Under the pieces are notes generated by a model. That model searched no databases. It saw only the letters and a list, made by a program, of their open reading frames with translations, and was not told the origin of the DNA. This document shows positions 7,701 through 55,082 of a stretch of DNA of 64,000 nucleotides, piece after piece; the stretch's first letter is position 1; each line of letters starts with the position of its first letter. This stretch comes from Amphiura filiformis (lineage: Eukaryota). The stretch is from the NCBI RefSeq assembly GCF_039555335.1, contig NC_092630.1:31084769-31148768 (forward strand), read 5' to 3'. The translations under genes were made by a program, and so were the position numbers.

Positions 7701-9615
7701 ACATTGAATTCTTTCATTTAGGATGTAATTTTATCCAGTTTTTTTTTATACTTCAAAGAAATGCACTTTGTTTGGCAATTATGATTTTGAATTTCCAAAT
7801 CGTACACATACGCACAAACATCTCCAGTACATTTTACTACTAATGTTTAAACGCCCAAACCGCATTGCGCATTATACGCATACTATTCAAAATGCGATAC
7901 GTGTGCGAACAGAGTACGCGTATATGACAAACAAGTGTGCCTACGCACAAACATGCGTAGTACATAATTAGCCTCTCGTTATAAAAGGTCAGCAGACCTT
8001 GCTCGTCCTTCAACATGTTTGAGGGGAGTATGCCGATTTAATTTGGTTACGAAGGTATCCTTTCAAAGCAAACACTATGGACCACAAGAGCCTCGTCCAA
8101 TGGCACAGTCCAATAACCTCAATTACATAATCATAGTGCAAAATTTGACCTCAAGTTGCAGAGTATGAGTTTTGTACCCAAATCTTCAAAGGTCATTCAA
8201 TGAATGTACACATGTATGGGGTATAAGAACTTCCCCTGATAGATGAGAATGTTGTGGATCTTAATGAAATGAACTGGGAATTGTTTCATCGTAAAAGTTC
8301 TAATGTCCTCGAGAGAGACAGTTATATATGCTTCGCTATGCATCTGTGTGTTAAAACAGGCTACCATTGCAAAATATTATGAAGCGAGAAAAACGTGCGT
8401 CTGGTTGTACATAACACGCGGGCAAGACAGGCAAAACAATAATGTAACATTAATGTTTCACATTTCTTCCCCTCCATATCAATGTTTAAGCAAACACTTG
8501 ACTAAACGTCATTTAATTTGAAGGTTACTACTTGTTTATAAAGAATGCAAATGAAGTGCTCAAACCTAAACATTTTCCTAACACCCCATCCCTCCCCCTC
8601 CCCCTTCCCCACCAATCAATGTTGGGTTCTATTAGGCTCCCGTGACCAAACAAATTAGGATTCAACATTGCAGAGTCCGAACACGGAGGCTATTCATAAG
8701 ACCCAAATCAACATTGTTACGGGGGAGGAGGGGGTCGAATATGGTGCGTGGTCCTCAAGTGTCCCAAGGCTAGTTTCCGTACTTTGCGTTTTGTTTACAA
8801 TTACCTTTCCGATGGTAATGACATTTTAAAAATAAATAAAAAAATTGACAGTGATTCGTCGTCATCATTAACATTATCACCATCATCATCATCATCATTA
8901 TCATCACCATCATCACCATAATCATCATCATCACTACCATTGTCAAAGGAGTACATTTCTTAAATCACGTTTTTAAACTTCAAGCTTAGTTTGCCACCAA
9001 AAAATATCAACTACCAGATAAGGCTGAAATAAAAATAAAGTGAATTCTTAAACACTTGAGAACGTTCCTGCAATCTTATTGGTTCTTACCCAGCTTTACC
9101 GTGTGATATGACACGATATCACACGGTCAGCGTGCAGGCGTCGACGCCGACACGCTGTACTCGCTATTTGGACCAATCGGAGGCGCACAGCAACAACGAG
9201 ACTGATCGATTTTAAGCGCTTGGTAATTCCTTGCAAAATGTAGGATTTAATTTAATTAAAACTTGTATAATATTTTTATTTGAATTGAAGTGTTTAAGAA
9301 TGAGAATAAAGGTATTGTTTTAGCCGCTGTCGTGCATCTATCGTCTCATATAACACGCGCTATCATTATTTTTGGCGTAAAACAATTCGGCTTCGCCCCG
9401 TTGTTTTACTTAAAATAATGATGTCGCCGTGTTATATGAGACGATAGATGCACTAACAGCGCTAAAAACAATACCTTTATTCTCTAACTATTTACAGTCC
9501 ATTTAAAAACAAATTTGTTTTAGATAATGATTTGGAAATTCAAAATCATATTTCCAACACAAAGTGAATTTCTTTGAAGTTTAAAAAAAGTGGATTTAAT
9601 TACATCCGAAATGAA
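7701..9615. mobile_element. Element A, second copy, carrying two internal insertions (about 8040-8380, and 9045-9480 with its own palindrome)
   Basis: 7701-8040 matches 5351-5690. 8380-9045 matches 5690-6200. 9480-9615 matches 6200-6351. Confidence 0.7.
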
Positions 9616-10424
9616 AGAATTCGGTGTTTTAGACTATATAAATTATCATCAGTTTAACTTTAATTAAGTTTGATCATTATCTAGTAGGCTATACATTTTG
9701 ATATCATTGACCTGTTCATTCAACCCAATTAGTGTTATAATTTTTGTAAGACTAGATGTATCGTAAGGGTATATTATTGAATAAATCTATATCATGTACA
9801 TAAAAATATGCAAATTTTATGTTAATGAAGCCATATTTTTTGAAACCATATGTGTAAAAACTTGTAAAAAACTTTTGGGTATACCTCAGATCAAAAAATC
9901 CTATATCTACTTCAAATGTTGGTTTTTTGTTAAGGAAGCGCCTTTTTGCGCCAGTTCTGCCGCCTTACTACAAATAGTGATTGAATATGAATATTACTGT
10001 GATACCAATACCCAAATGTATTGTGCACCATCAGCCTCATTTCATACCCATGCTGGGTCACAATTACAGACCTGCCAACCTACCGAAGTCAGAATGAGGG
10101 ACATTGAGACCAAAACCTTGTACATGTACACAAACCATGTATCGACAAATTCAAAGACAAGGTGTGCAATACTTTCAGAATTCAGAGAAGGTTTTGCAGG
10201 TCCGAATTTATCACAATAGACTAAAGAGAATAATATACCAATTTTTAAAGAGACATTTTCGTCATTTTCTGCTGTTCTTACATTTAAATTTGCCATCACT
10301 GAAATTTTCAGAAAACAGGTCTGTCCCTCATTTTCACTTTGGTAAACCCCAAATGTGGGACAGTCCCTCAAAATGAGGGACAGTTGGCAGGTCTGCAATT
10401 AGTATTGACAACAAAATGTCTTAC

Positions 10425-11715: not shown

Positions 11716-12082
11716 ATAAAAATTGAAAATGGCGGCCATTTTGGACGCCATCTTGATTTTGAAGGAAGCACAAGGGGATTCTCGGGGACTTTTGGAATTT
11801 GATTCTATACATATTCCTGGACCTATCCTGAAAAAATCAGCTTGTTATGAGAAATGTTAACCTTTTTATGACATATGAGCTAATACTATTGGACTATTTG
11901 AAATATCACAGTTGGATTGCATACAGGTGTTGAAAACTGTGTTTATTCAATTGAAATTTCTAGTATAGTTGTCCTAACTAATTTACACATAAGACAACAA
12001 ATTGGCAATGTCCAAAAGACATGGCAATTGACTCAGATTTGCAGTCAGAGTATATCCTCCCATATTTCCATTGACTACCTAC

Positions 12083-12226
12083 CTGTCCCATATTTCTGAA
12101 TTTTGCTAGCACTGCCCCTGCTACTGCTGTGTCCACATCGGCTGAATCAAACACAAGGAAGGGGGCATTACCACCAAGCTCCATAGACACACGCTTCACT
12201 GTACTTGCTGCTTGCTTGAGTAAAAT
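12083..12226 (-). CDS. ALDH5A1: ALDH5A1-like exon 6 ([48 protein letters not shown])
   Basis: ORF 11978..12397(-). ELGGN general-base motif. Acceptor ttgccag|ATTTTA, donor GGACAG|gtaggt. Confidence 0.85.
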
Positions 12227-12361
12227 CTGGCAATAATATGGTGACGTAAGAACAAAACTTAGAAAGTAGAATGACAATTTTCTAAAGGATGTAAATATTA
12301 ATAAGAGCAACCAATAGTTTCTTTTTCTTTCTTTCATATTATCAGTATTGGTCCAGTATAG

Positions 12362-12640
12362 TCCCACCCGCTTTTTTAGGTGAAAATTTTTCACCAAAAA
12401 AAAATTTCAAGATGTTTTGTATTTTTAATATGAAAATTGATAATTTGTATTCATGTCATACTCTATTAATGATTTCAAAATCCATTGAATTTGAATGCAT
12501 TTTGAAAACATTAATAGAATATGACATGAATACAAATTATCAATTTTCATATTAAAAATACAAAACATCTTGAATTTATTTTTTTACAATTTCTGGAATT
12601 TTTCGAAAAATGGGGGGTGGGACTATACTCGGACGAATAC
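12362..12640. mobile_element. Foldback element related to the family 4 core, with its own TIR gagtatagtcccaccc
   Basis: 12362-12385 is the reverse complement of 12612-12640. The core matches the 23560-23700 palindrome. Confidence 0.6.
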
Positions 12641-29934: not shown

Positions 29935-30185
29935 CAATCATAGGCATAGATCAGGGGGGGTGTCTCCCAATATTTTGGCAGGGGGATGGTCCATACAACG
30001 CCCCCACCCCCCAATGTTGACGCCTGTATGTGGGTTTCTGACCAAATTAACCTTCTATTGGCCATTTTAGCCCCGAATTTATTCCCCTTTTGCATCATAT
30101 TCCATCAGTTTAGCTTCAATATGGCAAAAAATTTTGCGCACATTTGTAAGTTGTCCACTTGTGTCGTCGCCATATACTATTACTA
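29935..30185. repeat. About 250-bp repeat whose inverted partner lies at 35700-36010
   Basis: ccaatattttggcagggggatggtccatacaa...ccccaatgttgacgcctgtatgtgggtttctgaccaaattaacc is the reverse complement of 35780-35995. Confidence 0.7.
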
Positions 30186-32489: not shown

Positions 32490-33690
32490 AGACTTAGCTG
32501 TGGTCTAAGACCACGAACACAGCCGTGGTGTGACCCCTTAATGACCTTTGACTCCAAAATTTCAGAACACTCCATAGACATCGGCTAATCTCAATGCACG
32601 TTTGCACGTGGCATCACTCTGCTATGTTATTTGTGCCAGAAGAGGCATTTAGAAGGAATTTCGTTTTTAGACCGGAAGTGACCCTAAATGACCTTTGATC
32701 CCAAATAAAAAATACCAGAGATACACTGGATAACCACAATTCATGTGTGAACATACCGTTACTGTCGTAATTATTTCGTTTTATACCGGAAGTGACCCTT
32801 TAATGACCTTTGACCCCAAATCTGTGTACACCCCGTAGACACTGGGTAATGACAATGCATGTGTGCAAGTGGCGTCACTGTCCTACGTAATATGTGGGAG
32901 AAGATGCATTTTAAAGGTATTTCGTTTTATACCGGAAGTGACGCCTTAATGACCTATCACCCAAAATTTAAAAAACCACATATACACTGGGTAACCACAA
33001 TTAATGTGTGAACATACCGTTACTGTCCTATGTTTGGTTTGTGTAATAAAAATTTTTGAAGGTATTTCGTTTTATACCGGAAGTGACCCCTTAATGACCT
33101 TTGACCCCAAATAAAAAATACCACATATACACTAGGTAACCACAATTCATGTGTGAACATACCATTACTGTACTATGTTTTGTTTGGCTAATAAAATTTT
33201 TTGAAGGTATTTCGTTTTATACCGGAAGTGACCCCTAAATGACCTTTGACCCCAAATTTGTGTACACCCCATAGACACTAGGTAATGACAATGCATGTGT
33301 GCAAGTGGCGTCACTGTCCTACGTAATTTGTGGGAGAAGATGCATTTTAAAGGTTTTTCGTTTTATACCGGAAGTGACCCCTTAATGACCTTTGACCCAA
33401 AATAAAAAAATACCACATATAAACTGGATAACCGCAATTCATGTGTGAACATACCGTTACTGTCCTTTGTTTTGTTTAGCTAATAAAATTTTTTGAATGT
33501 ATTTCGTTTTATACCGGAAGTGACCCTTTAGTGACCTTTGACCCCAAATCTGTGTACACCACATAGACACTGGGTAGTAACAATGCATGTGTGCTAGTGG
33601 CGTCGCTATCCTACGTAAGTTGTGGGAGAAGATGCATTTTTAGTTGAAATCATGTTTTTGACCCCTATGACCCCTGCGTGACCTTTGACC
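32490..33690. repeat. About 146-bp tandem repeat of roughly 8 units with two alternating sub-types (accggaagtgaccc...aatgacctttgacccc)
   Basis: cggaagtgacc recurs at 32674, 32779, 32931, 33077, 33222, 33369 and 33515. Confidence 0.85.
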
Positions 33691-35699: not shown

Positions 35700-36010
35700 C
35701 TGACCAAGTTCAGTGGCGTAGATTTCTTTTTGACATTGGTGGGGGATGAGGTTGGAAAAAATTCTTGAAGTATAGTGAATCTGTCACCTTTTGGCAACCA
35801 AATAGCTTTATGGTACAAATGCGTGAGAAGCTCGTGAACAAAATTGTGTTATATTGAAGCTAAAATGATGAAATATGGTACAAAATGGCCATGAGGTTAA
35901 TTTGGTCAGAGACCCACATACAGGCATCAACATTTGGGGTGGGGAATGATTGTATGGACCATCCCCCTGGCAAAATATTGGGGTGATTTATCCTCCAACC
36001 CCCCCCTCTA
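35700..36010. repeat. Inverted partner of 29935-30185, ending 8 bp before the NEIL2-like ORF
   Basis: See 29935-30185. Confidence 0.7.
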
Positions 36011-36221
36011 GATTGAAATGGTCTTCCATTCTACATTTGCAGTTTTAGGGCACCACTATACAAATTTATGCAAAGGTTCTTTGTGCACTGTTTTTAGATT
36101 TCAAATAAACTTAACACCTTCTTTATTATCATTTTCAGAAATATATATATTTGGAGCTTGCCACCAGTCAACCACATTGTATCAGAATTTGAACATCAGA
36201 AACAACATCTATCTCCTCACG

Positions 36222-37832
36222 ATGGCAGAAGGACCTTGGCTTCGCAACTGGGGCCACATGACACAGCAATTTGAAGGTAACAAAATTGAAATGATATCTG
36301 GCACCACCAAGTTAATCGACAAAGAAATGTGGCAAAGAGCTTATTTCTCTTTAGTACAAGTGTACGGCAAACAAATGTTCATCAAACTCTCTCACAGTTG
36401 TGCAGGAGATGAAGACAAGTCCATCTGGTTGCGGTATCATTTCCAGATGCACGGAAGACTTAAAATTGGGCTGAAGCTAAGTAAAGAACAACAACCTCGA
36501 TTGGTTTTCCATTTCCAAGATAGAAAATATCTTGCATTTTTCGGTGGCTCTCTCAAAATTGTAGCAGGACCTTGTGAAGACACCAAGACAGATATTCTAA
36601 GTGAGACTTTTGATAGAGAACAGGCCGCTGAAGCTGTGAGGCAAGGTGATCATGTTTGTAACATTCTATTGGACCAAACACACTTCTCTGGTGTCGGCAA
36701 TATCATCATGAATGAAGTGCTGTATAACTGCAAAATCCATCCTCAAGAAATTGGGGAGAATCTCAGTCGAACAGAGGCAGAGAACTTGGTCAATGAAGTT
36801 GTTAAATTCAGCAACGAGTGGCTGGATTGGGAGCTCTCTGATCACTCATGCGAAGAAAATTTGAGTGATCAAATGAAAGTATACTGGAAATTTACATGCC
36901 CTCTTGGTCACAAAACTAAACGGGGCTGGTTTAAAGAGAACGAGCTGAAATGGGTAATGGTGTGGTGTCCTCGATGCCAGCAAGAGAAAAGTATGCCAAT
37001 TCAAAAGCTGGGATGTGGAAAAGTAGTTGATAGCAAAAGTAGCAATGGTGAGGATGCAAGTAGTGCAGAATACAGTGGTGGTGAGGTTCAATGTAGCGAT
37101 AGTGATGGAACAGGAAGTTATGATTGGAATTGCACGTTAGATGAGTTGCCATCTATGAGTAATGAGGATACAATCAATACCAGTGATGAGCATGGTAATG
37201 ATGTGATGATGTATGATAATATGGTGACATCGGATAGTGGAATGGCATCGGATGGTGATTTGGAAGTTGTAAGTGTCATTGACAGAACATGTGTTATAAT
37301 GAGTAACTATGAAGAAAAGAAACCAAAAGTTGACAACTCTTCCAAATCGTGTAATAAATCGGTAAAAGTTCTTGTGGAACAAAGCGTTCTTGAGTTGCAT
37401 CCCAAGTTAAACATGGCAGCTGTTGCACTTGCGAAGAAACTATCTGCACATGAAATTCAGAGGCGTACTTGCAAGTATAAAAGATGTAACACAAACTTAA
37501 AGACAAGGTCATTTAATAGCAAATGGCACAGAATCAGTCATTCCAGGTATAATAAACACACAACCTGTCACAGCAGGCCTGGAGTAAATGCGAAAATAAG
37601 TCAGAGGAAACAAGAAGATCAAATTGCGCGAAAGTTGTATAAGGCTCAAGACAGGGACATTGCAATCAAGAAGAAAGCAAGTAGTAGAAAGACCAAGGTG
37701 CCTACATGTAGAATGCCCTTGAAGAAGTGGAGGGTTTCGGATTGTGTAAAGCTATCAGCTCAAGACAAGAACACTACAATGAAGATGGTAAAAACTCCAA
37801 GTGGTACTTTTGTTGTTACAGCACCCAAGTAA
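36222..37832 (+). CDS. NEIL2: Nei-like DNA glycosylase 2 (NEIL2-type; Fpg/Nei N-terminal domain, H2TH, CHCC zinc finger), single exon, with a ~280-aa low-complexity C-terminal extension
   Basis: ORF 36018..37832. From the Met at 36222: MAEGPWLRNWGHMTQQFEGNKI (human NEIL2 is MPEGPLVRKFHHLVSPFVGQQV). PRLVFHFQDRKYLAFFGG, LLDQTHFSGVGNIIMNEVLYNCKIHP (H2TH) and CPLGH...WCPRCQ (CHCC) are all collinear with NEIL2, with no frameshifts or stops. TATATATATTT lies about 75 nt upstream of the ATG. Confidence 0.85.
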   Translation: MAEGPWLRNWGHMTQQFEGNKIEMISGTTKLIDKEMWQRAYFSLVQVYGKQMFIKLSHSCAGDEDKSIWLRYHFQMHGRLKIGLKLSKEQQPRLVFHFQDRKYLAFFGGSLKIVAGPCEDTKTDILSETFDREQAAEAVRQGDHVCNILLDQTHFSGVGNIIMNEVLYNCKIHPQEIGENLSRTEAENLVNEVVKFSNEWLDWELSDHSCEENLSDQMKVYWKFTCPLGHKTKRGWFKENELKWVMVWCPRCQQEKSMPIQKLGCGKVVDSKSSNGEDASSAEYSGGEVQCSDSDGTGSYDWNCTLDELPSMSNEDTINTSDEHGNDVMMYDNMVTSDSGMASDGDLEVVSVIDRTCVIMSNYEEKKPKVDNSSKSCNKSVKVLVEQSVLELHPKLNMAAVALAKKLSAHEIQRRTCKYKRCNTNLKTRSFNSKWHRISHSRYNKHTTCHSRPGVNAKISQRKQEDQIARKLYKAQDRDIAIKKKASSRKTKVPTCRMPLKKWRVSDCVKLSAQDKNTTMKMVKTPSGTFVVTAPK

Positions 37833-47968: not shown

Positions 47969-49366
47969 ATGAATGCTGACGATGCTGATGCTTATGATGC
48001 TGCTGATGCTGCTGATGATGATGCTGTTGACGATGCTGATGCTGCTGATGATGATGCTACTGATGATGCTGTTGATGCTGCTGCTGATAATGATGTTGAT
48101 ACTGATGATGCTACTGATGATGCTGCTGATGATGCAGATGCTGCTGATGATGCTGATGATGTTGATGCTGATGATGTTCATGATGCGACTGATGATAATG
48201 CTGATGATGCTGCTGCCAATGATGCTGATGATGATGTTGCTACTGATGATGCTGATACTGATGATGATGCTGATGATGATGATGTTGCTGCTGATAATGA
48301 TGTTGATACTGATGATGCTGCTGACAATGCAGGTGCTGATGGTGCTGCTGATGATGATGCTGATGATGTTGATCATGTTGATGATGCGACTGATGATGAT
48401 GCTGCTGCAGATGATGATGCTGCTGCAGATGATGATGCTGCTGATGATGCTGATACTGCTCATAATGCTGCTGCTGACGATGCTGCTGATGTTGATGCTG
48501 CTGCTGATGATGATGCTGATACTGATGACGCTGATGATGATGCTGCTGCTGACGATGTAGATGCTGATGATGATGCTAATGCTGCTGCTGATGTTGATGC
48601 TGCTGCTGATAATGATGTTGATACTGATGATGCTGCTGATGATGCTGCTGCTGACGATGCAGATGCTGATGATGATGCTGATGATGTTGATGATGCGACT
48701 GATGATGTTGCTGCTGCTGATGATGCTGCTACTGATGATGCTGATACTGCTGCTGATGATGCTGCTGATGATGATGCTGCTGCTGATGTTGCTGCTGATA
48801 ATGATGTTGATACTGATGATGCTGCTGCTGACAATGCAGGTGCTGATGGTGCTGCTGATGATGATGCTGATGATGTTGATGATCATGTTGATGGTGCGAC
48901 TGATGATGCTGCTGCTGCTGATGATGCTGATACTGCTCATAATGCTGCTGCTGACGATGCTGCTGATGATGTTGATGCTGTTGATGATGCTGATACTGCT
49001 GCTGCTGCTGATGATGATAATGTTGCTGCTGCTGCTGATGCTGCTGATATTAATGATGCTGCTGCTGATGTTGCTGCTGATGATGCAGATGTTGATGATG
49101 CTGATGATGATGTTGACGATGCTGCTGATGATGCTGATGCTGCTGCTGATGATGCTGTTGCTGATGATGCTGATACTGATGATGCTGCTGCTGACGGTGC
49201 TGCTGCTGATGTTGATGCTACTGCTGATGATGCTGATACTGATGCTGCTGCTGCTGACGATGTAGATGCTGATGATGATGCTGCTGCTGACGATGCGGAT
49301 GCTGCTGCTGATGATGATACTGATGATGTTGATGATGATGTTGATGATGCTGCTGATGATGACTGA
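47969..49366 (+). CDS. Intact 465-codon ORF encoding an extremely acidic poly(Asp/Ala) protein (MNADDADAYDAADAADDDAVDD...), built from GATGCT-type cryptic repeats. Coding status is uncertain.
   Basis: Uninterrupted ORF with ATG AAT GCT at 47969. Codons are almost exclusively GAT/GCT/GAC/GTT/ACT. There is an internal 510-bp duplication (48285-48400 matches 48795-48910). No signal peptide. Confidence 0.3.
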   Translation: MNADDADAYDAADAADDDAVDDADAADDDATDDAVDAAADNDVDTDDATDDAADDADAADDADDVDADDVHDATDDNADDAAANDADDDVATDDADTDDDADDDDVAADNDVDTDDAADNAGADGAADDDADDVDHVDDATDDDAAADDDAAADDDAADDADTAHNAAADDAADVDAAADDDADTDDADDDAAADDVDADDDANAAADVDAAADNDVDTDDAADDAAADDADADDDADDVDDATDDVAAADDAATDDADTAADDAADDDAAADVAADNDVDTDDAAADNAGADGAADDDADDVDDHVDGATDDAAAADDADTAHNAAADDAADDVDAVDDADTAAAADDDNVAAAADAADINDAAADVAADDADVDDADDDVDDAADDADAAADDAVADDADTDDAAADGAAADVDATADDADTDAAAADDVDADDDAAADDADAAADDDTDDVDDDVDDAADDD

Positions 49367-49673
49367 TGATGACAATGATGCCTCGGATGATGACTTGCAT
49401 GATGATGACATGTATGATCAGTAGCTGTATCATCACCATCATCAGCATCAGCAGGATCATCATCAGCAGCATCACCAGCATCAGTATCATCAGTAGCAGT
49501 ATCAGCATCATCAACAGCATCATCATCAGCATCATAATCAGCATCAGCAGGATCATCATCAGCAGCATCACCAGCATCAGTATCATCAGTAGCAGTATCA
49601 GCATCATCAACAGCATCATCATCAGCATCATAATCAGCATCAGCAGCATCATCAGCATCACCATCATCTGCAT

Positions 49674-49714
<41 letters not shown>

Positions 49715-49746
49715 GCATCATCATTAGCATCATCAGCATCATTATC

Positions 49747-50099
49747 TTAATTGGCATCATCAGCATTATCAGCATCAGCAGCATCATCATCAGTAGGCCT
49801 AACATCATCAGCATCACCATCTGCATCAGAATCATCATCAGCAGCATCAGCATCATCATAATCAACATCATAATCAGCAGCAACATCATCATTATCACCA
49901 TCATCTGCATCAGAATCATCACCAGCATCATCATCATCATCCTCATTAGCATCATCAGCATCATCATCATAATCGGCATCATAAGCATTATCATCATCAT
50001 CAGCATCATCATCAGCAACATTATCAGCATTATCATCGGCATCAGCATCATCATCATCATTAGCATAATCAGCATCAGCACCATCAACATCATCATCAA

Positions 50100-50130
<31 letters not shown>

Positions 50131-50878
50131 ATCTACATCGTCAGCAGCAGCATTATCGTCAGCGTCATCAGTATCAGCATCATCATCAGCAGCATCAACA
50201 TCAGCAGCAGCATCGTCAGCATCAGTATCAGCATCATCAACAACAGCAGCAGCATCATCAGCATCGTCAGCAGCATCATCAGCAGTATCAGAATCATTTT
50301 CAGCAGCAGCATTAACATCATCAGCAGCAGCATTATTAGCATTAGCATTGTCAGCAACATCATCAGCATCATTATCATCAGCAGCATCATCAGTAGCAGC
50401 ATCATCAGCAGCATCATCATCATCAACAGCATTATCATCCAGCAGTATCATTATCAGCAGCATCATAAGCATCAGCATCGTCAGCATCATCATCAACAGC
50501 ATCACCATCATCAGCATCATCATCAGCAGCATCATCAGCATCTGCTCCATCAGCAGCAGCATAATCAGCAGCATCATCAGTATCAACATCATTATCAGCA
50601 GCAGCATTAACATCATCAGCAGCAGCATCAGCATCATCAGTATCAGCATCATCAGCAGCAGCATCATCATCATCAGTCGCATCATCATCAACATCATCAT
50701 CAGCATCATCATCAGCATCTGCATCGTCAGCAGCATCATTAGTATCAACATCATTATCAGCAGCAGCATCAACATCATCAGCAGCAGCATCATCATCAGC
50801 AGCATCATCATCAGTAGCATCATCAGCAGCATCAGCATCGTCAACAGCATCATAATCAGCAGCATCATAAGCATTCAT
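49747..50878 (-). pseudogene. Inverted, diverged paralogue of the D/A-rich ORF (MNAYDAADYDAVDDADAADD...). The D/A frame is broken by a stop and frame shifts.
   Basis: ORF 50435..50989(-) holds the D/A frame from ATG 50878 and stops at 50435. The D/A frame resumes in a different frame inside ORF 49747..50874(-). It starts with the same ATGAATGCT as the plus-strand copy. Confidence 0.25.
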
Positions 50879-52864: not shown

Positions 52865-53664
52865 ATGGCAGCCTACATACATCATGTCCAGCTCTGCACG
52901 AAGCACGGGTCTAAATATGTGCAGAAGTTTGTCCAGAATGCTAATTTCAAACTTTTTGCCGAGAGAACAACTGATTCTATAAGGCAGTGGGCTGTCAGGA
53001 GTGGCTCAACAGTATTTGTCATCAATCAACCCGTCACTGCGAACGCTGAACCAGGCGCAGAACACGTTGAAAATCCGTATAGGCCTACGTTGTTGTGTAA
53101 TAATACTATTACCAATTCTCGTATTTCTGATCGTGGTTCTGGCATGTCTGGTGAACACCCCCAAAGTTATAAGAGTGATCAAAATCAGTCAATACCAAAT
53201 CAACGTCATCATATACCATTATCCTGTTTTTCATCTAATAAGGACCGAAATATAGATACAGTTTTTAATGTTGCATTCGAAGTTCCCAATGTTGAAAAAA
53301 GTGTTGAACTGGCACAGCAAAATGGGGCTAAAGTCCTATGTGAACCAACAGCAGTGCATGATGGTAATGGAAAAGTGGTTGTTGCTTCTGTGCAATCTTG
53401 CATCGGCAATGTTGTTCATATGTTGCTCAATGCAACAGACTACCATGGGGTCTTTTTACCAGGGTTTTGCAGCATAGAATCAGAATCTCATCATGCTCAT
53501 GATAAGAACTTGAATTTTTTTGAATTTGAAACAAGCGAAGTTAATGGACAGACATTAACAAGTCATCTGGATCATGTAACTTTTGCATCAAACATAGGTA
53601 CTTCAAGTCACGTTCTAGAATGGTATGAGAAGTGTTTTGGAATGAAGCGATTCAAACTATCCAG
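52865..53664 (+). CDS. HPDL: 4-hydroxyphenylpyruvate dioxygenase-like (HPDL / glyoxalase-domain) exon 1
   Basis: ORF 52865..53668 gives MAAYIHHVQLC...RQWAVRSGSTVFVINQ (human HPDL is MAAPALRLCHIAFHV...WRQLALRSGDAVFLVNE), then YHGVFLPGF and LDHVTFASNIGTSSHVLEWYEKCFGMKRFKL. Donor TCCAG|gtaaga. Confidence 0.8.
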
Positions 53665-55082
53665 GTAAGAGGTATTATATAGGCCTACATGGATGTATAC
53701 ATGTAAACTCCATGCAATACTTTTTTCTATAGTATAGGCCTATTAAATCACAAAAGATTTTTTAGGAGATGATGAGTGCTTTATATATTTTTGCAGAATG
53801 ATTTCCATATGTAGGGACAGGCACATCTGAACGAGGGCGCTATTTATTTTACTTGATAATACAGGCGGTGATGGAAGCGATATCGCCAATTTTGAGGTCG
53901 CCATTGGATTAACACATAATCATGAAATCTTCACAAACAATTCTAAATTTGTTATGTGGTGTCAAAGCAAAATTACATGTATCTTACTCTAAAACCGTCG
54001 GGGTACGACAATGTACCACACTGCAAGTATGTTAATTTTCCATTTGTAATTGCTAACCGTGTATTTTGAATGGGGCTGTCAGCCCTGTATCTTCGCCAGC
54101 CTCAGACGTCACGTGTTGCGCTTCCTATGCCGCCTGGATAATAAAGCCCTATGTAAATCTGTGCCATTTTGTGCCACTGAAAACACCATTTTTGGAGAAA
54201 ATGATGAATAAAACCAAAATGAATCGTTTTCAGATGCTCTAGTTTGCATTGACAACAGATTCAATGCTTTAGGAAGCAGAATGCAACATTGACTTCACTT
54301 TTGGATATTTTTTTCTGTGAGATATGCCTTGGTGAAAATCACTATTTTGGTCAAAAAAGGGGTCAAAAAGGGGCATTTTTGGGAAAAAAATCTATTTTGA
54401 CCCAAAATTCATCTTCTGACAAAAGGGAAACATGGTTTGACAAAAACTTTCATCCTTTTCACATAACAATTCCAGTTTACATATTTGCTGGGAGAAAGCA
54501 CTTTTTTGTTATCGCTTGGGAAAAATCATTGTTTTTGCCTAAAATGGCCGAAAAAATGGCACATTTTTACCACCTTAAAAATTGAATTTTCATACAAAAT
54601 TTCACAGATGTGTTGGAAATGATAACATACATAATATTCAACAAAAATTAGATAAAATTACAATGAAAACAAAAAATTAGAGAAAATGGCCCAATGTTCC
54701 GACAGTAATTTTGTCATACAGTAGAAGATTTGTTTTGGTGTCAAATTGTTTCTGAGAAGTTCTCTCTTCCAATAAACAACAATTCATGTTAATAGAATTA
54801 ATTTGAAATTTTTATGCCTTAACCTAATAATTTTTCATTTTAAAGATGTACTGTATACCGGTACTTGTATCCGTGAATTTGATGTTTTTCAATGGGTACA
54901 AAATTTGTTGTTTTCCATAACTTTTCATCCCTGCCCAGATGACTTGTCATATTTTATTTTATGAAGAGCATGAATGAATTCATATTTTTTATAGTCAAAA
55001 TGTTAGATTTTTGTATGCATGTACATTACTACATGTACAATGGTTAATCATTCTTGGATGTGTTTGTTGCTTCTTTCTGCAG

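What the first reader, a model, noticed from the sequence alone, without database searches (positions are those of the whole stretch)
36018..37832. Intronless NEIL2-type glycosylase with Ala instead of the catalytic Pro2, and a long novel C-terminal tail
The whole Nei/H2TH/CHCC zinc-finger architecture of NEIL2 is encoded collinearly in one 604-codon ORF. The neighbouring conserved genes have 4-8 introns, so this suggests a retrogene or a lineage-specific intron-less copy. The predicted start MAEGP replaces the family-invariant MPEGP with a GCA codon. In Fpg/Nei enzymes the N-terminal Pro after Met removal is the Schiff-base nucleophile, and NEIL3 uses Val instead, so an Ala2 enzyme would have altered chemistry or be a pseudo-glycosylase. 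Glu3 and the Lys of the YGKQMF motif are retained. About 280 aa of acidic, Ser-rich sequence followed by a Lys/Arg-rich tail comes after the zinc finger, with no counterpart in NEIL2. The ORF begins 8 bp after a 250-bp repeat whose inverted partner lies 6 kb upstream.
Basis: partly seen in the sequence, partly recalled or inferred. Interest (0 to 1): 0.62.

Follow-up and report, generated by a model that had tools for sequence, protein, structure and literature searches.

The report
Brittle-star NEIL2 paralogue with altered active site
This is a real, conserved extra copy of the DNA-repair glycosylase NEIL2 in the brittle star Amphiura filiformis that has lost the catalytic N-terminal proline and a key DNA-clamping arginine but is still kept by selection, so it probably binds DNA without doing the usual chemistry; its lack of introns and its long tail are normal for echinoderm NEIL2 genes.

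Summary
The ORF is real. The CDS (36222-37832, 536 aa) equals RefSeq XP_072025792.1, an 'uncharacterized protein' of Amphiura filiformis. Residues 1-257 are a NEIL2-type Nei/H2TH/CHCC domain (PDB NEIL2 E~1e-35; model TM 0.88 to the NEIL2-DNA complex). Codon 2 is GCA (Ala).

The gene is a paralogue, not the NEIL2 orthologue. A. filiformis has a canonical MPEGP NEIL2 on another chromosome. The window gene belongs to a separate 'W' clade whose other members start MPEGPW.

Ala2 is not the only change. Of 46 columns near-invariant in 22 Pro2 NEIL2s, the window protein changes 7, including K163M, G238K, R244W (human Arg310) and T246M. Glu3, Lys50, the H2TH Asn and the zinc ligands remain. The domain is still under purifying selection.

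A relative in another assembly also has GCA. It has also lost the ATG and Lys50 but keeps the same tail. Its Pro2 sister copies lost the tail.

The retrogene reading is not supported. In the related echinoderm loci read here, the NEIL2 catalytic domain lies in one exon.

The tail is homologous within the subfamily (E 1e-31) but matches no known domain.

Most likely this is a lyase-dead DNA-binding derivative. It is a new variant of a known kind, of moderate interest.

The parts
36018..37832 (+).
   Evidence: The first 68 codons have no homology in any relative.
36222..37832 (+). Coding sequence of 536 aa plus stop. It equals RefSeq XP_072025792.1, 'uncharacterized protein' of Amphiura filiformis.
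   Evidence: 100% identity over 536 aa; accession.
36225..36227 (+). Codon 2, GCA = Ala. It replaces the Pro (CCA/CCT in relatives) that is the Schiff-base nucleophile.
   Evidence: (first codons of the five W genes).
36222..36992 (+). NEIL2-type glycosylase domain, residues 1-257: N-terminal beta-sandwich, H2TH and CHCC zinc finger
   Evidence: Pfam H2TH 5.5e-15. phmmer to NEIL2 structures ~1e-35. AF2 pLDDT about 90, with TM 0.88 and rmsd 2.7 A to 8th9.
36369..36371 (+). Lys50 of YGKQMF, retained. It corresponds to human NEIL2 Lys50.
   Evidence: role from PMC8879280.
36447..36452 (+). Void-filling loop positions Met76-His77. They correspond to opossum Leu141-Phe142. The aromatic residue is Trp/Phe in all canonical NEIL2s, Asn in other W members and His here.
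   Evidence: role from PMC10711445.
36690..36710 (+). H2TH motif GVGNIIM. Asn160 is kept. Lys163 is replaced by Met; it is Lys in all 23 other sequences.
36897..36980 (+). CHCC zinc finger (Cys226, His230, Cys249, Cys252), with G238K (36933-36935), R244W (36951-36953, TGG) and T246M (36957-36959) in the beta-hairpin
   Evidence: Arg310 is described as an 'absolutely conserved Arg' that clamps the two phosphates flanking the lesion (PMC8879280). The human G303R variant lowers glycosylase activity (PMC12459671).
36993..37277 (+). Acidic, Ser/Thr-rich, predicted disordered linker (residues 258-352). It contains a YDW motif (37119-37127) shared with P0003/P0004 and P0016 (degenerate YDL in P0002).
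   Evidence: pI 4.05; pLDDT about 30; motif.
37257..37283 (+). DLEVVSVID block: an acidic run followed by V-V-S-V. It is conserved in all W copies and resembles a SUMO-interaction motif by pattern only.
37278..37829 (+). Basic Lys/Arg-rich tail (residues 353-536), homologous to the tail of P0002
   Evidence: pI 10.3. BLASTP of the tails gives E 1e-31, 34% identity over 213 aa. dN/dS 0.28.
37470..37541 (+). Best-conserved tail block, RRTCKYKRCNTNLKTRSFNSKWHRISH, with spacing C-x4-C-x13-H-x3-H. It is a possible zinc-binding module.
   Evidence: No Pfam or PDB match. pLDDT 55-64.
37791..37817 (+). C-terminal motif KTPSGTFVV (KTPSGSFIV in P0002, TSSGKFVIS in P0016), predicted as a beta-hairpin
   Evidence: pLDDT about 74.
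36118..36137 (+). Polypyrimidine-AG acceptor-like site (ttctttattatcattttcag) 84 nt upstream of the start codon. It is a putative 3' end of a 5'UTR intron.
   Evidence: Read directly. Equivalent sites lie 48-112 nt upstream of the start in L001-L004. This is inferred, not shown.
35840..35990 (+). One copy of a dispersed repeat of about 150-190 bp. The inverted partner is at 29960-30135.
   Evidence: (I8, I9, I13).
29960..30135 (-). Inverted partner of the repeat above

Best explanation
The ORF is a functional, selection-maintained paralogue of NEIL2. It belongs to a third echinoderm NEIL2 clade ('W'), which in the collections searched here appears only in A. filiformis and two unnamed assemblies that may be brittle stars or close relatives.

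Ancestrally, W proteins were ordinary Pro2 Nei-type enzymes with a long C-terminal tail. They had already replaced the aromatic void-filling residue with Asn.

In the A. filiformis lineage the copy lost four things: the N-terminal Pro nucleophile (P2A), the zinc-finger Arg that clamps the phosphates flanking the lesion (R244W, with G238K and T246M nearby), and an H2TH Lys (K163M). It kept the fold, Glu3, Lys50, the H2TH Asn and the zinc ligands.

Inferred mechanism:
- The protein still folds as a Nei domain and probably still engages DNA. Binding may be weaker or altered, and may be helped by the very basic tail.
- It cannot perform the Pro-dependent Schiff-base beta/delta-lyase chemistry.
- After Met removal the N-terminus Ala-Glu- is a near-ideal NatA substrate. 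The alpha-amine is therefore probably acetylated and blocked.
- The retained function probably lies in DNA or lesion binding plus partner recruitment. The candidate recruitment elements are the conserved tail modules: the YDW motif, the acidic/hydrophobic DLEVVSVID block, the C-x4-C-x13-H-x3-H block and the C-terminal KTPSGTFVV hairpin.

Shown here: homology, paralogy, the substitutions, the rate asymmetry, purifying selection and tail conservation.
Inferred only: loss of lyase activity, acetylation, and a reader or scaffold role.
For: Identity and fold.

Paralogy:
- A. filiformis has a canonical NEIL2, XP_072043763 (MPEGP), on another chromosome.
- NJ tree: W monophyly 100%, W sister to canonical clade A 92%, clade A monophyly 90%.

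Ancestral Pro2: P0003, P0004 and P0016-full start ATG CCA/CCT, reading MPEGPW.

Active-site erosion:
- 7 changes at 46 columns that have at most one exception among 22 Pro2 sequences. The 21 metazoan Pro2 sequences in that set show 0-2 changes each.
- Pro1 is the nucleophile. [quoted passage not shown] Arg310 is described as 'absolutely conserved' (PMC8879280).
- The human G303R variant lowers glycosylase activity (PMC12459671).
- Experimental precedent: M. smegmatis Nei2 P2A loses AP lyase activity (3.3% vs 93.8%) but keeps 5-hydroxyuracil glycosylase activity (PMC11323726).

Acetylation logic: NatA acetylates Ala- N-termini. An acidic second residue gives >95% acetylation. Pro prevents acetylation (PMC6063853).

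Still functional:
- Domain dN/dS is 0.11-0.13 against relatives, and tail dN/dS is 0.28.
- Window vs P0003 domain identity is 72%, similar to 74% for canonical NEIL2 between the same two organisms.
- The 536-codon ORF is intact.

Accelerated lineage: 34 vs 13 unique changes against P0003 (chi-square 9.4).

Independent replicate: P0002 in assembly ERZ25070167 has GCA at the same codon, ATG changed to ATA, GK changed to NQ (Lys50 lost), G169W and Arg changed to Lys. It nevertheless keeps a 566-codon ORF and the whole tail. Its sister copies P0003/P0004 keep every catalytic residue but lost the tail by frameshift.
Against: - No expression, protein or activity data are available.
- Glu3, Lys50, Asn160 and the zinc finger are all retained. 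This would be unexpected if catalysis were irrelevant, and fits a residual glycosylase.
- Nei2 P2A keeps glycosylase activity.
- NEIL3 works with Val2.
- A bacterial Nei-like protein that is otherwise canonical naturally starts MAEGP.
- dS is saturated between the compared genes, so the dN/dS values are rough.
- The tail modules match no known domain. SUMO-interaction, zinc-binding and other readings rest on pattern only.
- The single-base calls GCA and TGG could not be checked against reads.
- N-terminal acetylation is predicted from general rules, not measured.
Confidence: 0.55

Rival explanations
1. It is still an active DNA glycosylase with changed chemistry. It would be a monofunctional or weak-lyase enzyme that uses the primary alpha-amine of Ala1, or water activated by Glu3. 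It would be comparable to NEIL3 (Val2), probably specialised for single-stranded or forked DNA.
For: - Glu3, Lys50, H2TH Asn160 and the CHCC ligands are retained.
- The domain is under strong purifying selection.
- M. smegmatis Nei2 P2A retains 5-hydroxyuracil glycosylase activity while losing lyase activity.
- NEIL3 uses Val2.
- An otherwise canonical bacterial Nei-like protein has a natural MAEGP start.
- The whole W clade lacks the aromatic void-filling residue. From my own knowledge of NEIL3, that is a feature associated with preference for single-stranded DNA.
Against: - The Arg equivalent to human Arg310 is lost. It is described as absolutely conserved and needed for DNA binding.
- G238K, T246M and K163M are also changed.
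- Ala-Glu N-termini are expected to be more than 95% acetylated in eukaryotes, which would block an amine nucleophile.
- The relative P0002 shows that, with the start codon and Lys50 also lost, the Ala2 form is still retained.
Confidence: 0.27
2. It is a decaying or recently inactivated gene copy, or the unusual codons are assembly or polymorphism artefacts, and it has no retained function.
For: - There are seven hits at near-invariant positions and an accelerated lineage.
- The family does produce dead copies. L005 is a 5'-truncated fragment, and L002/L004 carry frameshifted, decayed tails.
- L. variegatus paralogue B has E3G.
- No expression evidence was available.
Against: - The 536-codon ORF is intact in an AT-rich genome.
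- dN/dS is 0.11-0.13 in the domain and 0.28 in the tail.
- Overall domain divergence is no greater than for canonical NEIL2 between the same species pair.
- Seven changes cannot all be sequencing errors.
- The same GCA codon occurs in an independent assembly.
- RefSeq models it as a complete protein.
Confidence: 0.1
3. One reading: it is a retrogene, or a lineage-specific intron-less copy, made from an intron-containing NEIL2 parent.
For: - The CDS is uninterrupted.
- The family has several dispersed copies in one assembly, including a 5'-truncated one. That pattern resembles retroposition.
- Vertebrate NEIL2 is multi-exon (own knowledge).
Against: - The catalytic domain is also in a single exon in L. 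variegatus canonical NEIL2 (residues 1-476). Paralogue B is fully single-exon.
- The canonical NEIL2 of assembly ERZ25070167 is one 467-codon ORF.
- Intronless coding sequence is therefore the ancestral state of echinoderm NEIL2 and carries no information about retroposition.
- No poly(A) tract follows the stop codon.
- An acceptor-like site lies upstream of the start in all W loci.
- W split from clade A before the ophiuroid-echinoid divergence in the tree.
Confidence: 0.08

Closest known systems
NEIL2 (endonuclease VIII-like 2), Fpg/Nei H2TH superfamily; closest structures are Monodelphis NEIL2 6VJI and 8TH9
   Same: - Same two-domain fold: model TM 0.88 to the DNA-bound NEIL2 structure.
- 33% identity to the opossum enzyme, and 49% to A. 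filiformis canonical NEIL2 in the domain.
- H2TH motif, NEIL2-specific CHCC zinc finger, Glu3 and Lys50 are present.
   Different: - Ala replaces the Pro nucleophile.
- Trp replaces the Arg310 equivalent.
- G238K, T246M and K163M are changed.
- His replaces the aromatic void-filling residue.
- It lacks the vertebrate disordered insert.
- It has a 279-aa tail absent from vertebrate NEIL2.
- It is a paralogue: the orthologue is XP_072043763.
NEIL3 (Val2 Nei-like glycosylase)
   Same: A non-proline residue 2 in a eukaryotic Nei-family protein. It also has a long C-terminal extension with extra zinc-binding modules, and lacks canonical void-filling residues (NEIL3 domain structure from own knowledge).
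   Different: - NEIL3 is a more distant sequence relative (PDB E about 1e-10, against 1e-35 for NEIL2).
- NEIL3 keeps the zinc-finger Arg.
- Its tail domains (RanBP-type and GRF zinc fingers) are unrelated: no Pfam match in this tail.
M. smegmatis Nei2 P2A mutant (PMC11323726)
   Same: Exactly the same substitution in a Nei-type enzyme. It gives an experimental read-out: lyase activity lost, glycosylase activity kept, and the in vivo crosslink-repair function independent of lyase.
   Different: It is an engineered bacterial protein with the zinc-finger Arg intact and no eukaryotic N-terminal acetylation.
Other echinoderm NEIL2 paralogues: clade A (canonical) and clade B (echinoid)
   Same: Single-exon catalytic domain and long, low-complexity basic C-terminal tails. 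Clade B of L. variegatus also shows an active-site change, E3G.
   Different: The tail sequences are clade-specific. HMGN-like RRSARL and AT-hook-like motifs occur in clade A. An acidic ISLSLSTL motif occurs in clade B. YDW, DLEVVSVID, the Cys/His block and KTPSGxF occur in clade W. All clade A and B members checked keep Pro2, Lys50 and the Arg.

Membership tests
Fpg/Nei (H2TH) superfamily | Helix-two-turn-helix domain | tested here: met
   Pfam PF06831 gives E 5.5e-15, 55.6 bits, above the 34.7-bit cut-off. The GVGN motif with Asn160 is present.
Fpg/Nei (H2TH) superfamily | N-terminal beta-sandwich glycosylase domain | tested here: met
   Pfam PF01149 gives only 19.1 bits, below the 25.5-bit cut-off. 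However, phmmer aligns residues 3-257 to NEIL2 8th9. The AF2 model has pLDDT about 90 and superposes on 8th9 with TM 0.88.
Fpg/Nei (H2TH) superfamily | N-terminal Pro (after Met removal) as Schiff-base nucleophile | tested here: not met
   Codon 2 is GCA (Ala). All 22 other canonical NEIL2-clade sequences have Pro.
Fpg/Nei (H2TH) superfamily | Catalytic Glu3 and the conserved Lys of the beta2-beta3 loop (human Lys50) | tested here: met
   E3 and K50 are present.
Fpg/Nei (H2TH) superfamily | Conserved Arg in the (zinc) finger hairpin that binds the phosphates flanking the lesion (human NEIL2 Arg310) | tested here: not met
   Trp244 (TGG at 36951-36953). Arg is present in all 22 Pro2 sequences. 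Role from PMC8879280.
NEIL2 subfamily | CHCC zinc finger | tested here: met
   C226, H230, C249 and C252 align with the NEIL2 ligands.
NEIL2 subfamily | Orthology to NEIL2: being the species' NEIL2 gene | tested here: not met
   A. filiformis has a separate 'endonuclease 8-like 2', XP_072043763. The window gene falls in a distinct clade, W: 100% monophyly, sister to clade A at 92%.
NEIL2 subfamily | Bifunctional glycosylase / beta,delta-lyase activity | not testable with these tools
   This needs biochemistry. Sequence predicts loss of lyase activity.
Processed retrogene | Intronless copy of a parent whose homologous region contains introns | tested here: not met
   Related canonical genes have the catalytic domain in one exon. 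The A. filiformis parent locus itself could not be fetched.
Processed retrogene | Poly(A) remnant or target-site duplications at the 3' end | tested here: not met
   No A-tract follows the stop codon. Target-site duplications were not searched for. Given the age of the clade, such hallmarks would be erased anyway.
Classical C2H2 zinc finger / PBZ (PAR-binding) zinc finger, for the tail block 417-439 | C-x2-4-C-x12-H-x3-5-H (C2H2) or C-x5-C-x6-H-x5-H (PBZ), with a profile match | tested here: not met
   The spacing is C-x4-C-x13-H-x3-H. No Pfam match at E up to 10. No PDB sequence match. Zinc binding is untested.

The most novel reading that the evidence does not exclude
Brittle stars carry a NEIL2-derived 'pseudo-glycosylase'. 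It would be a Nei-fold protein that selection has stripped of its nucleophile and phosphate clamp while preserving the fold and a dedicated tail, so that it reads damaged or single-stranded DNA and recruits partners instead of cutting.

Two observations would support an adaptive separation of the catalytic and scaffold roles:
- The same CCA-to-GCA change apparently arose in parallel in two lineages.
- In the second species the roles are split between paralogues. P0003/P0004 are catalytically intact but tail-less. P0002 has the tail but is catalytically degenerate.
Probability: 0.35. Interest if true: 0.55.

Novelty: new variant of a known kind. Interest (0 to 1): 0.42.

Why it matters
Fpg/Nei enzymes are a standard example of N-terminal-proline catalysis. 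NEIL3 (Val2) is the well-known eukaryotic exception.

This gene would be a natural, selection-maintained NEIL2 paralogue that lacks both the Pro nucleophile and the Arg described as 'absolutely conserved'. A second, more degenerate relative still keeps the same tail. Together they offer a natural experiment on what a Nei fold does when it cannot form the Schiff base, for example lesion or AP-site reading, protection or scaffolding.

The work also shows that echinoderms have three NEIL2 clades with clade-specific tails, and that active-site erosion recurs in the extra copies.

The practical consequence is modest. The gene should be annotated as a NEIL2-like paralogue, not as NEIL2 and not as a retrogene.

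Tried and rejected
- First AF2 run with the 5-sequence alignment gave mean pLDDT 34 and was unusable. The second run, with 14 sequences, was good for the domain only.
- A search of the 5.8-billion-protein collection with the tail alone returned nothing, not even the protein itself. It is therefore uninformative about tail homologues.
- Pfam and PDB sequence searches of the tail found nothing significant. Classical C2H2, PBZ, AT-hook, PIP and APIM readings of tail motifs were considered from pattern and dropped, because spacing or consensus is not met.
- The locus of the canonical A. filiformis NEIL2 (P0006) is not on record, so its exon structure could not be read. Sea-urchin and ERZ25070167 loci were used instead.
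- Orthology of clade W with echinoid paralogue B was considered, because both are intronless with acidic/hydrophobic tail motifs. It was rejected: W+B has 1% bootstrap support against 92% for W+A.
- A single origin of Ala2 in a common ancestor of the window gene and P0002 was considered. It is disfavoured: P0002 groups with P0003/P0004 at 96% bootstrap; dS is 0.89 against 1.75-2.4; and the decayed tail remnants of P0003/P0004 resemble P0002. Parsimony-informative sites are few (4 vs 6 vs 3), so it is not excluded.
- The bacterial promoter/terminator scan is irrelevant for a eukaryote.
- The upstream repeat is absent from related loci.
- Literature searches for NEIL2 in echinoderms or A. filiformis found nothing relevant.
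Full report
**1. What is in the sequence**

The window comes from the brittle star Amphiura filiformis. The protein encoded from ATG 36222 to the stop at 37832 is 100% identical over 536 aa to RefSeq XP_072025792.1, an 'uncharacterized protein', on an 86-Mb chromosome.

It is by far the longest non-repetitive ORF in the window.

Homology to every relative begins exactly at the Met of MAEGPW.

A polypyrimidine-AG site (ttctttattatcattttcag) lies 84 nt upstream of that ATG, and no ATG lies between the two. Equivalent acceptor-like sites lie 48-112 nt upstream of the start in all four related loci. I infer a 5'UTR intron. On that reading, the 68 extra codons and the upstream repeat are intronic. 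This is not shown.

**2. Identity of the domain**

- Pfam finds H2TH (E 5.5e-15). The N-terminal Fapy domain scores below its cut-off.
- phmmer against the PDB aligns residues 3-257 to opossum NEIL2 (8th9 9.6e-36; 6vji 3.5e-35). NEIL3 (about 1e-10), NEIL1 and Fpg score far lower.
- An AlphaFold model built on 14 sequences has pLDDT about 90 across residues 1-257. It superposes on the NEIL2-DNA complex 8th9 with TM 0.88 and rmsd 2.7 A.
- The architecture claim is therefore confirmed, including the NEIL2-type CHCC finger (C226, H230, C249, C252).

**3. It is a paralogue, and the family context changes the interpretation**

An exhaustive HMMER scan and cluster look-ups show that A. filiformis also has a canonical 'endonuclease 8-like 2'. 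This is XP_072043763, 458 aa, starting MPEGP, on a different chromosome. It is 49% identical to the window protein in the domain.

Echinoderm NEIL2-like proteins fall into three clades (NJ, 1000 bootstraps):

- **Clade A, canonical:** A. filiformis, Lytechinus, Diadema and the unnamed assembly ERZ25070167. Monophyly 90%.
- **Clade B, echinoid paralogue:** monophyly 99.9%.
- **Clade W:** the window gene; P0002, P0003, P0004 and P0108 from ENA assembly ERZ25070167; and P0016 from ERZ27293330. Monophyly 100%.

W is sister to A (92%) and not to B (1%). The other full-length W members begin MPEGPW, with CCA or CCT at codon 2. Pro2 is therefore the ancestral state of the clade.

**4. Intron status**

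- L. variegatus paralogue B is a single-exon CDS (L007 2001-3482).
- L. variegatus canonical NEIL2 has residues 1-476 in one exon. Only the last approximately 60 residues lie on downstream exon(s), the first detected about 16 kb further on.
- The canonical gene of ERZ25070167 is one uninterrupted 467-codon ORF.
- All W loci are uninterrupted.
- No poly(A) remnant follows the stop codon.

Intronlessness therefore says nothing about retroposition here.

**5. The active site**

Codon 2 is GCA. In an alignment with 22 Pro2 NEIL2-clade sequences, 46 columns have at most one exception. The window protein differs at 7 of them: P2A, Y107F, P144H, K163M, G238K, R244W and T246M. The 21 metazoan Pro2 sequences in that set differ at 0-2 each (an earlier alignment gave the same seven).

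- R244 aligns with human NEIL2 Arg310. That residue is described as an 'absolutely conserved Arg' that squeezes the two phosphates flanking the lesion. With Lys50, it is required for efficient DNA binding. Pro1 is the nucleophile (PMC8879280).
- G238 aligns with human G303, whose somatic G303R variant lowers glycosylase activity (PMC12459671).
- The aromatic void-filling residue (opossum Phe142; PMC10711445) is Trp or Phe in all canonical sequences except L. variegatus paralogue B (Leu). It is Asn in the other W members and His in the window protein.
- Retained: Glu3, Lys50 (YGKQMF), H2TH Gly159-Asn160 and the four zinc ligands.

**6. Is it decaying?**

No.

- NG86 dN/dS for the domain is 0.11 (vs P0003) and 0.13 (vs P0002). 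For the tail it is 0.28 vs P0002. dS is saturated, so these values are rough.
- Domain identity between the window protein and P0003 (72%) is about the same as between the canonical NEIL2s of the same two organisms (74%).
- The A. filiformis lineage is nevertheless accelerated. It has 34 unique changes against 13 in P0003, with P0016 as outgroup (chi-square 9.4).

**7. A natural replicate**

In assembly ERZ25070167, P0002 (566 aa, L001) carries the same GCA codon. Its original ATG is now ATA, with a new ATG four codons upstream, so Ala cannot be N-terminal. It has also changed YGKQ to NNQH (Lys50 lost), GVGN to GVWN, and the finger Arg to Lys. That makes 9-11 hits at near-invariant columns.

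It still keeps a 566-codon ORF and a tail homologous to the window tail along its whole length (E 1e-31).

Its sister copies P0003/P0004 (96% bootstrap; dS 0.89, against 1.75-2.4 to the window gene) keep every catalytic residue. They are cut off just after the DDLEVLSVSD block by a frameshift. Recognisable decayed remnants of the tail (KKLSATEIDR...) lie downstream.

P0108 (L005) is a 5'-truncated fragment with Arg changed to Ser.

Two points follow:

- The CCA-to-GCA change most likely arose twice. Few informative sites bear on this, so a single origin is not excluded.
- In the second species, catalysis and tail are partitioned between copies. That argues the tail-bearing scaffold has a function independent of catalysis.

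L. variegatus paralogue B has MPGGP (E3G), another case of active-site change in a supernumerary NEIL2.

**8. The tail**

- Residues 258-352 are acidic (pI 4.05) and predicted disordered.
- Residues 353-536 are basic (pI 10.3).
- Conserved blocks:
  - YDW (residues 300-302).
  - DLEVVSVID (346-354): an acidic run followed by hydrophobic residues, resembling a SUMO-interaction motif by pattern only.
  - VEQxxL...KKLSxxEIxRRTCKYxRCNxxLxxRSFNSKWHxxSHxRYN (C-x4-C-x13-H-x3-H; pLDDT 55-64).
  - The C-terminal KTPSG(T/S)F(V/I)V, predicted as a hairpin with pLDDT about 74. P0016 ends with TSSGKFVIS.
- No Pfam or PDB sequence match was found.
- The large-database search with the tail failed even to return the protein itself, so it is uninformative.
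- Long basic tails are normal in invertebrate deuterostome NEIL2s. What is specific to W is the sequence of the tail.

**9. Mechanism proposed**

The experimental precedent is M. smegmatis Nei2 P2A. It abolishes AP-lyase activity (3.3% vs 93.8%) and most Schiff-base trapping. It leaves 5-hydroxyuracil glycosylase activity intact, and the in vivo crosslink-repair function of Nei2 does not need lyase activity (PMC11323726).

In a eukaryote there is a further point. Pro N-termini are never acetylated. Ala- N-termini are NatA substrates, and an acidic second residue raises acetylation above 95% (PMC6063853). The mature Ala-Glu-Gly-Pro N-terminus is therefore probably blocked.

Combined with the loss of the Arg310-equivalent clamp and of Lys163, the most likely state is a Nei-fold protein that cannot run the canonical Schiff-base lyase cycle and has altered DNA contacts. 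It would be maintained for DNA or lesion binding and for tail-mediated interactions (confidence 0.55).

The main rival is a still-active monofunctional glycosylase, NEIL3-like (0.27). It is favoured by the retention of Glu3 and Lys50, and by natural MAEGP Nei-like proteins in bacteria (P0090, on a gene-dense bacterial contig). Pseudogene or artefact (0.10) and retrogene origin (0.08) are less likely.

**10. The repeat**

Two copies of an element of about 150-190 bp lie in inverted orientation, at 29960-30135 and 35840-35990. They are about 85-90% identical, with a 26-bp indel. They are the only two copies in the window and are absent from related loci. The proximal copy ends about 235 bp before the real start codon. 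Nothing ties it to the gene.

**11. Verdict**

It is a new variant of a known kind. Interest is moderate, because pseudo-enzyme derivatives of repair enzymes are not unprecedented. The combination of loss of nucleophile and Arg clamp, purifying selection, an apparently parallel Pro-to-Ala change, and complementary degeneration of paralogues makes it a tidy, testable case.

Noticed in passing
P0005, P0006, P0168, P0169 and P0153 (canonical echinoderm NEIL2 proteins; L008, L009): The C-terminal tails of clade-A echinoderm NEIL2 end with an HMGN-like nucleosome-binding-type motif (RRSARL, RRSARIA, RQSARLA, RRSTRLRR). L. variegatus also has AT-hook-like RGRP repeats. This suggests chromatin tethering of canonical NEIL2 in echinoderms.
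   Followed up: no
L007 (L. variegatus CM031025.1), protein P0162: Sea urchins have a second, fully single-exon NEIL2 paralogue (clade B) with a conserved acidic ...ISLSLSTLxxLM C-terminal motif. The L. variegatus copy reads MPGGP (Glu3 changed to Gly) and LMLG (Trp changed to Leu), whereas L. pictus has MPEGP and LMWG.
   Followed up: partly
window 47973-49371 and 49429-50874: Two arrays of about 1.4 kb of degenerate (GATGCT/GATGAT)n repeats are reverse complements of each other and meet near 49400. Together they form a large inverted microsatellite palindrome, which produces spurious long ORFs in all frames.
   Followed up: no
window 32530-33640: A tandem array of a 146-bp unit (about 5.6 copies, with 261/292-bp higher-order periods) lies inside the segment bracketed by the inverted repeat copies.
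   Followed up: no
window 11978-12397 (-): An exon of an aldehyde dehydrogenase gene (Pfam Aldedh, 3.3e-13). A 267-codon ORF at 52865-53668 (+) has no Pfam match.
   Followed up: no
Proteins P0027-P0152 (N-termini listed); L010: Residue 2 is not universally Pro in Nei-like proteins. MAEGP occurs in P0081 and in P0090; P0090 lies on a bacterial contig with a TLC ATP/ADP transporter. MTEGP occurs in P0028 and P0072. MVEGP/MVEAP also occur. About 30 proteins of roughly 245 aa start MEGPS, with no residue between Met and Glu.
   Followed up: partly
L001 about 6009, L002 about 9938, L004 about 983, L003 about 470; window about 36137: All five W-clade loci have a polypyrimidine-AG acceptor-like site 48-112 nt upstream of the start codon. 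This suggests a conserved 5'UTR intron.
   Followed up: partly
L005 (ERZ25070167 ctg296409) 8054-8542 and 9619-9816: A 5'-truncated W-clade copy. It starts at the equivalent of residue 218, has the finger Arg changed to Ser, and has a decayed tail remnant 1.1 kb downstream. The W family therefore has at least three to four loci in that organism (P0003 and P0004 could be alleles), and some are dead.
   Followed up: partly
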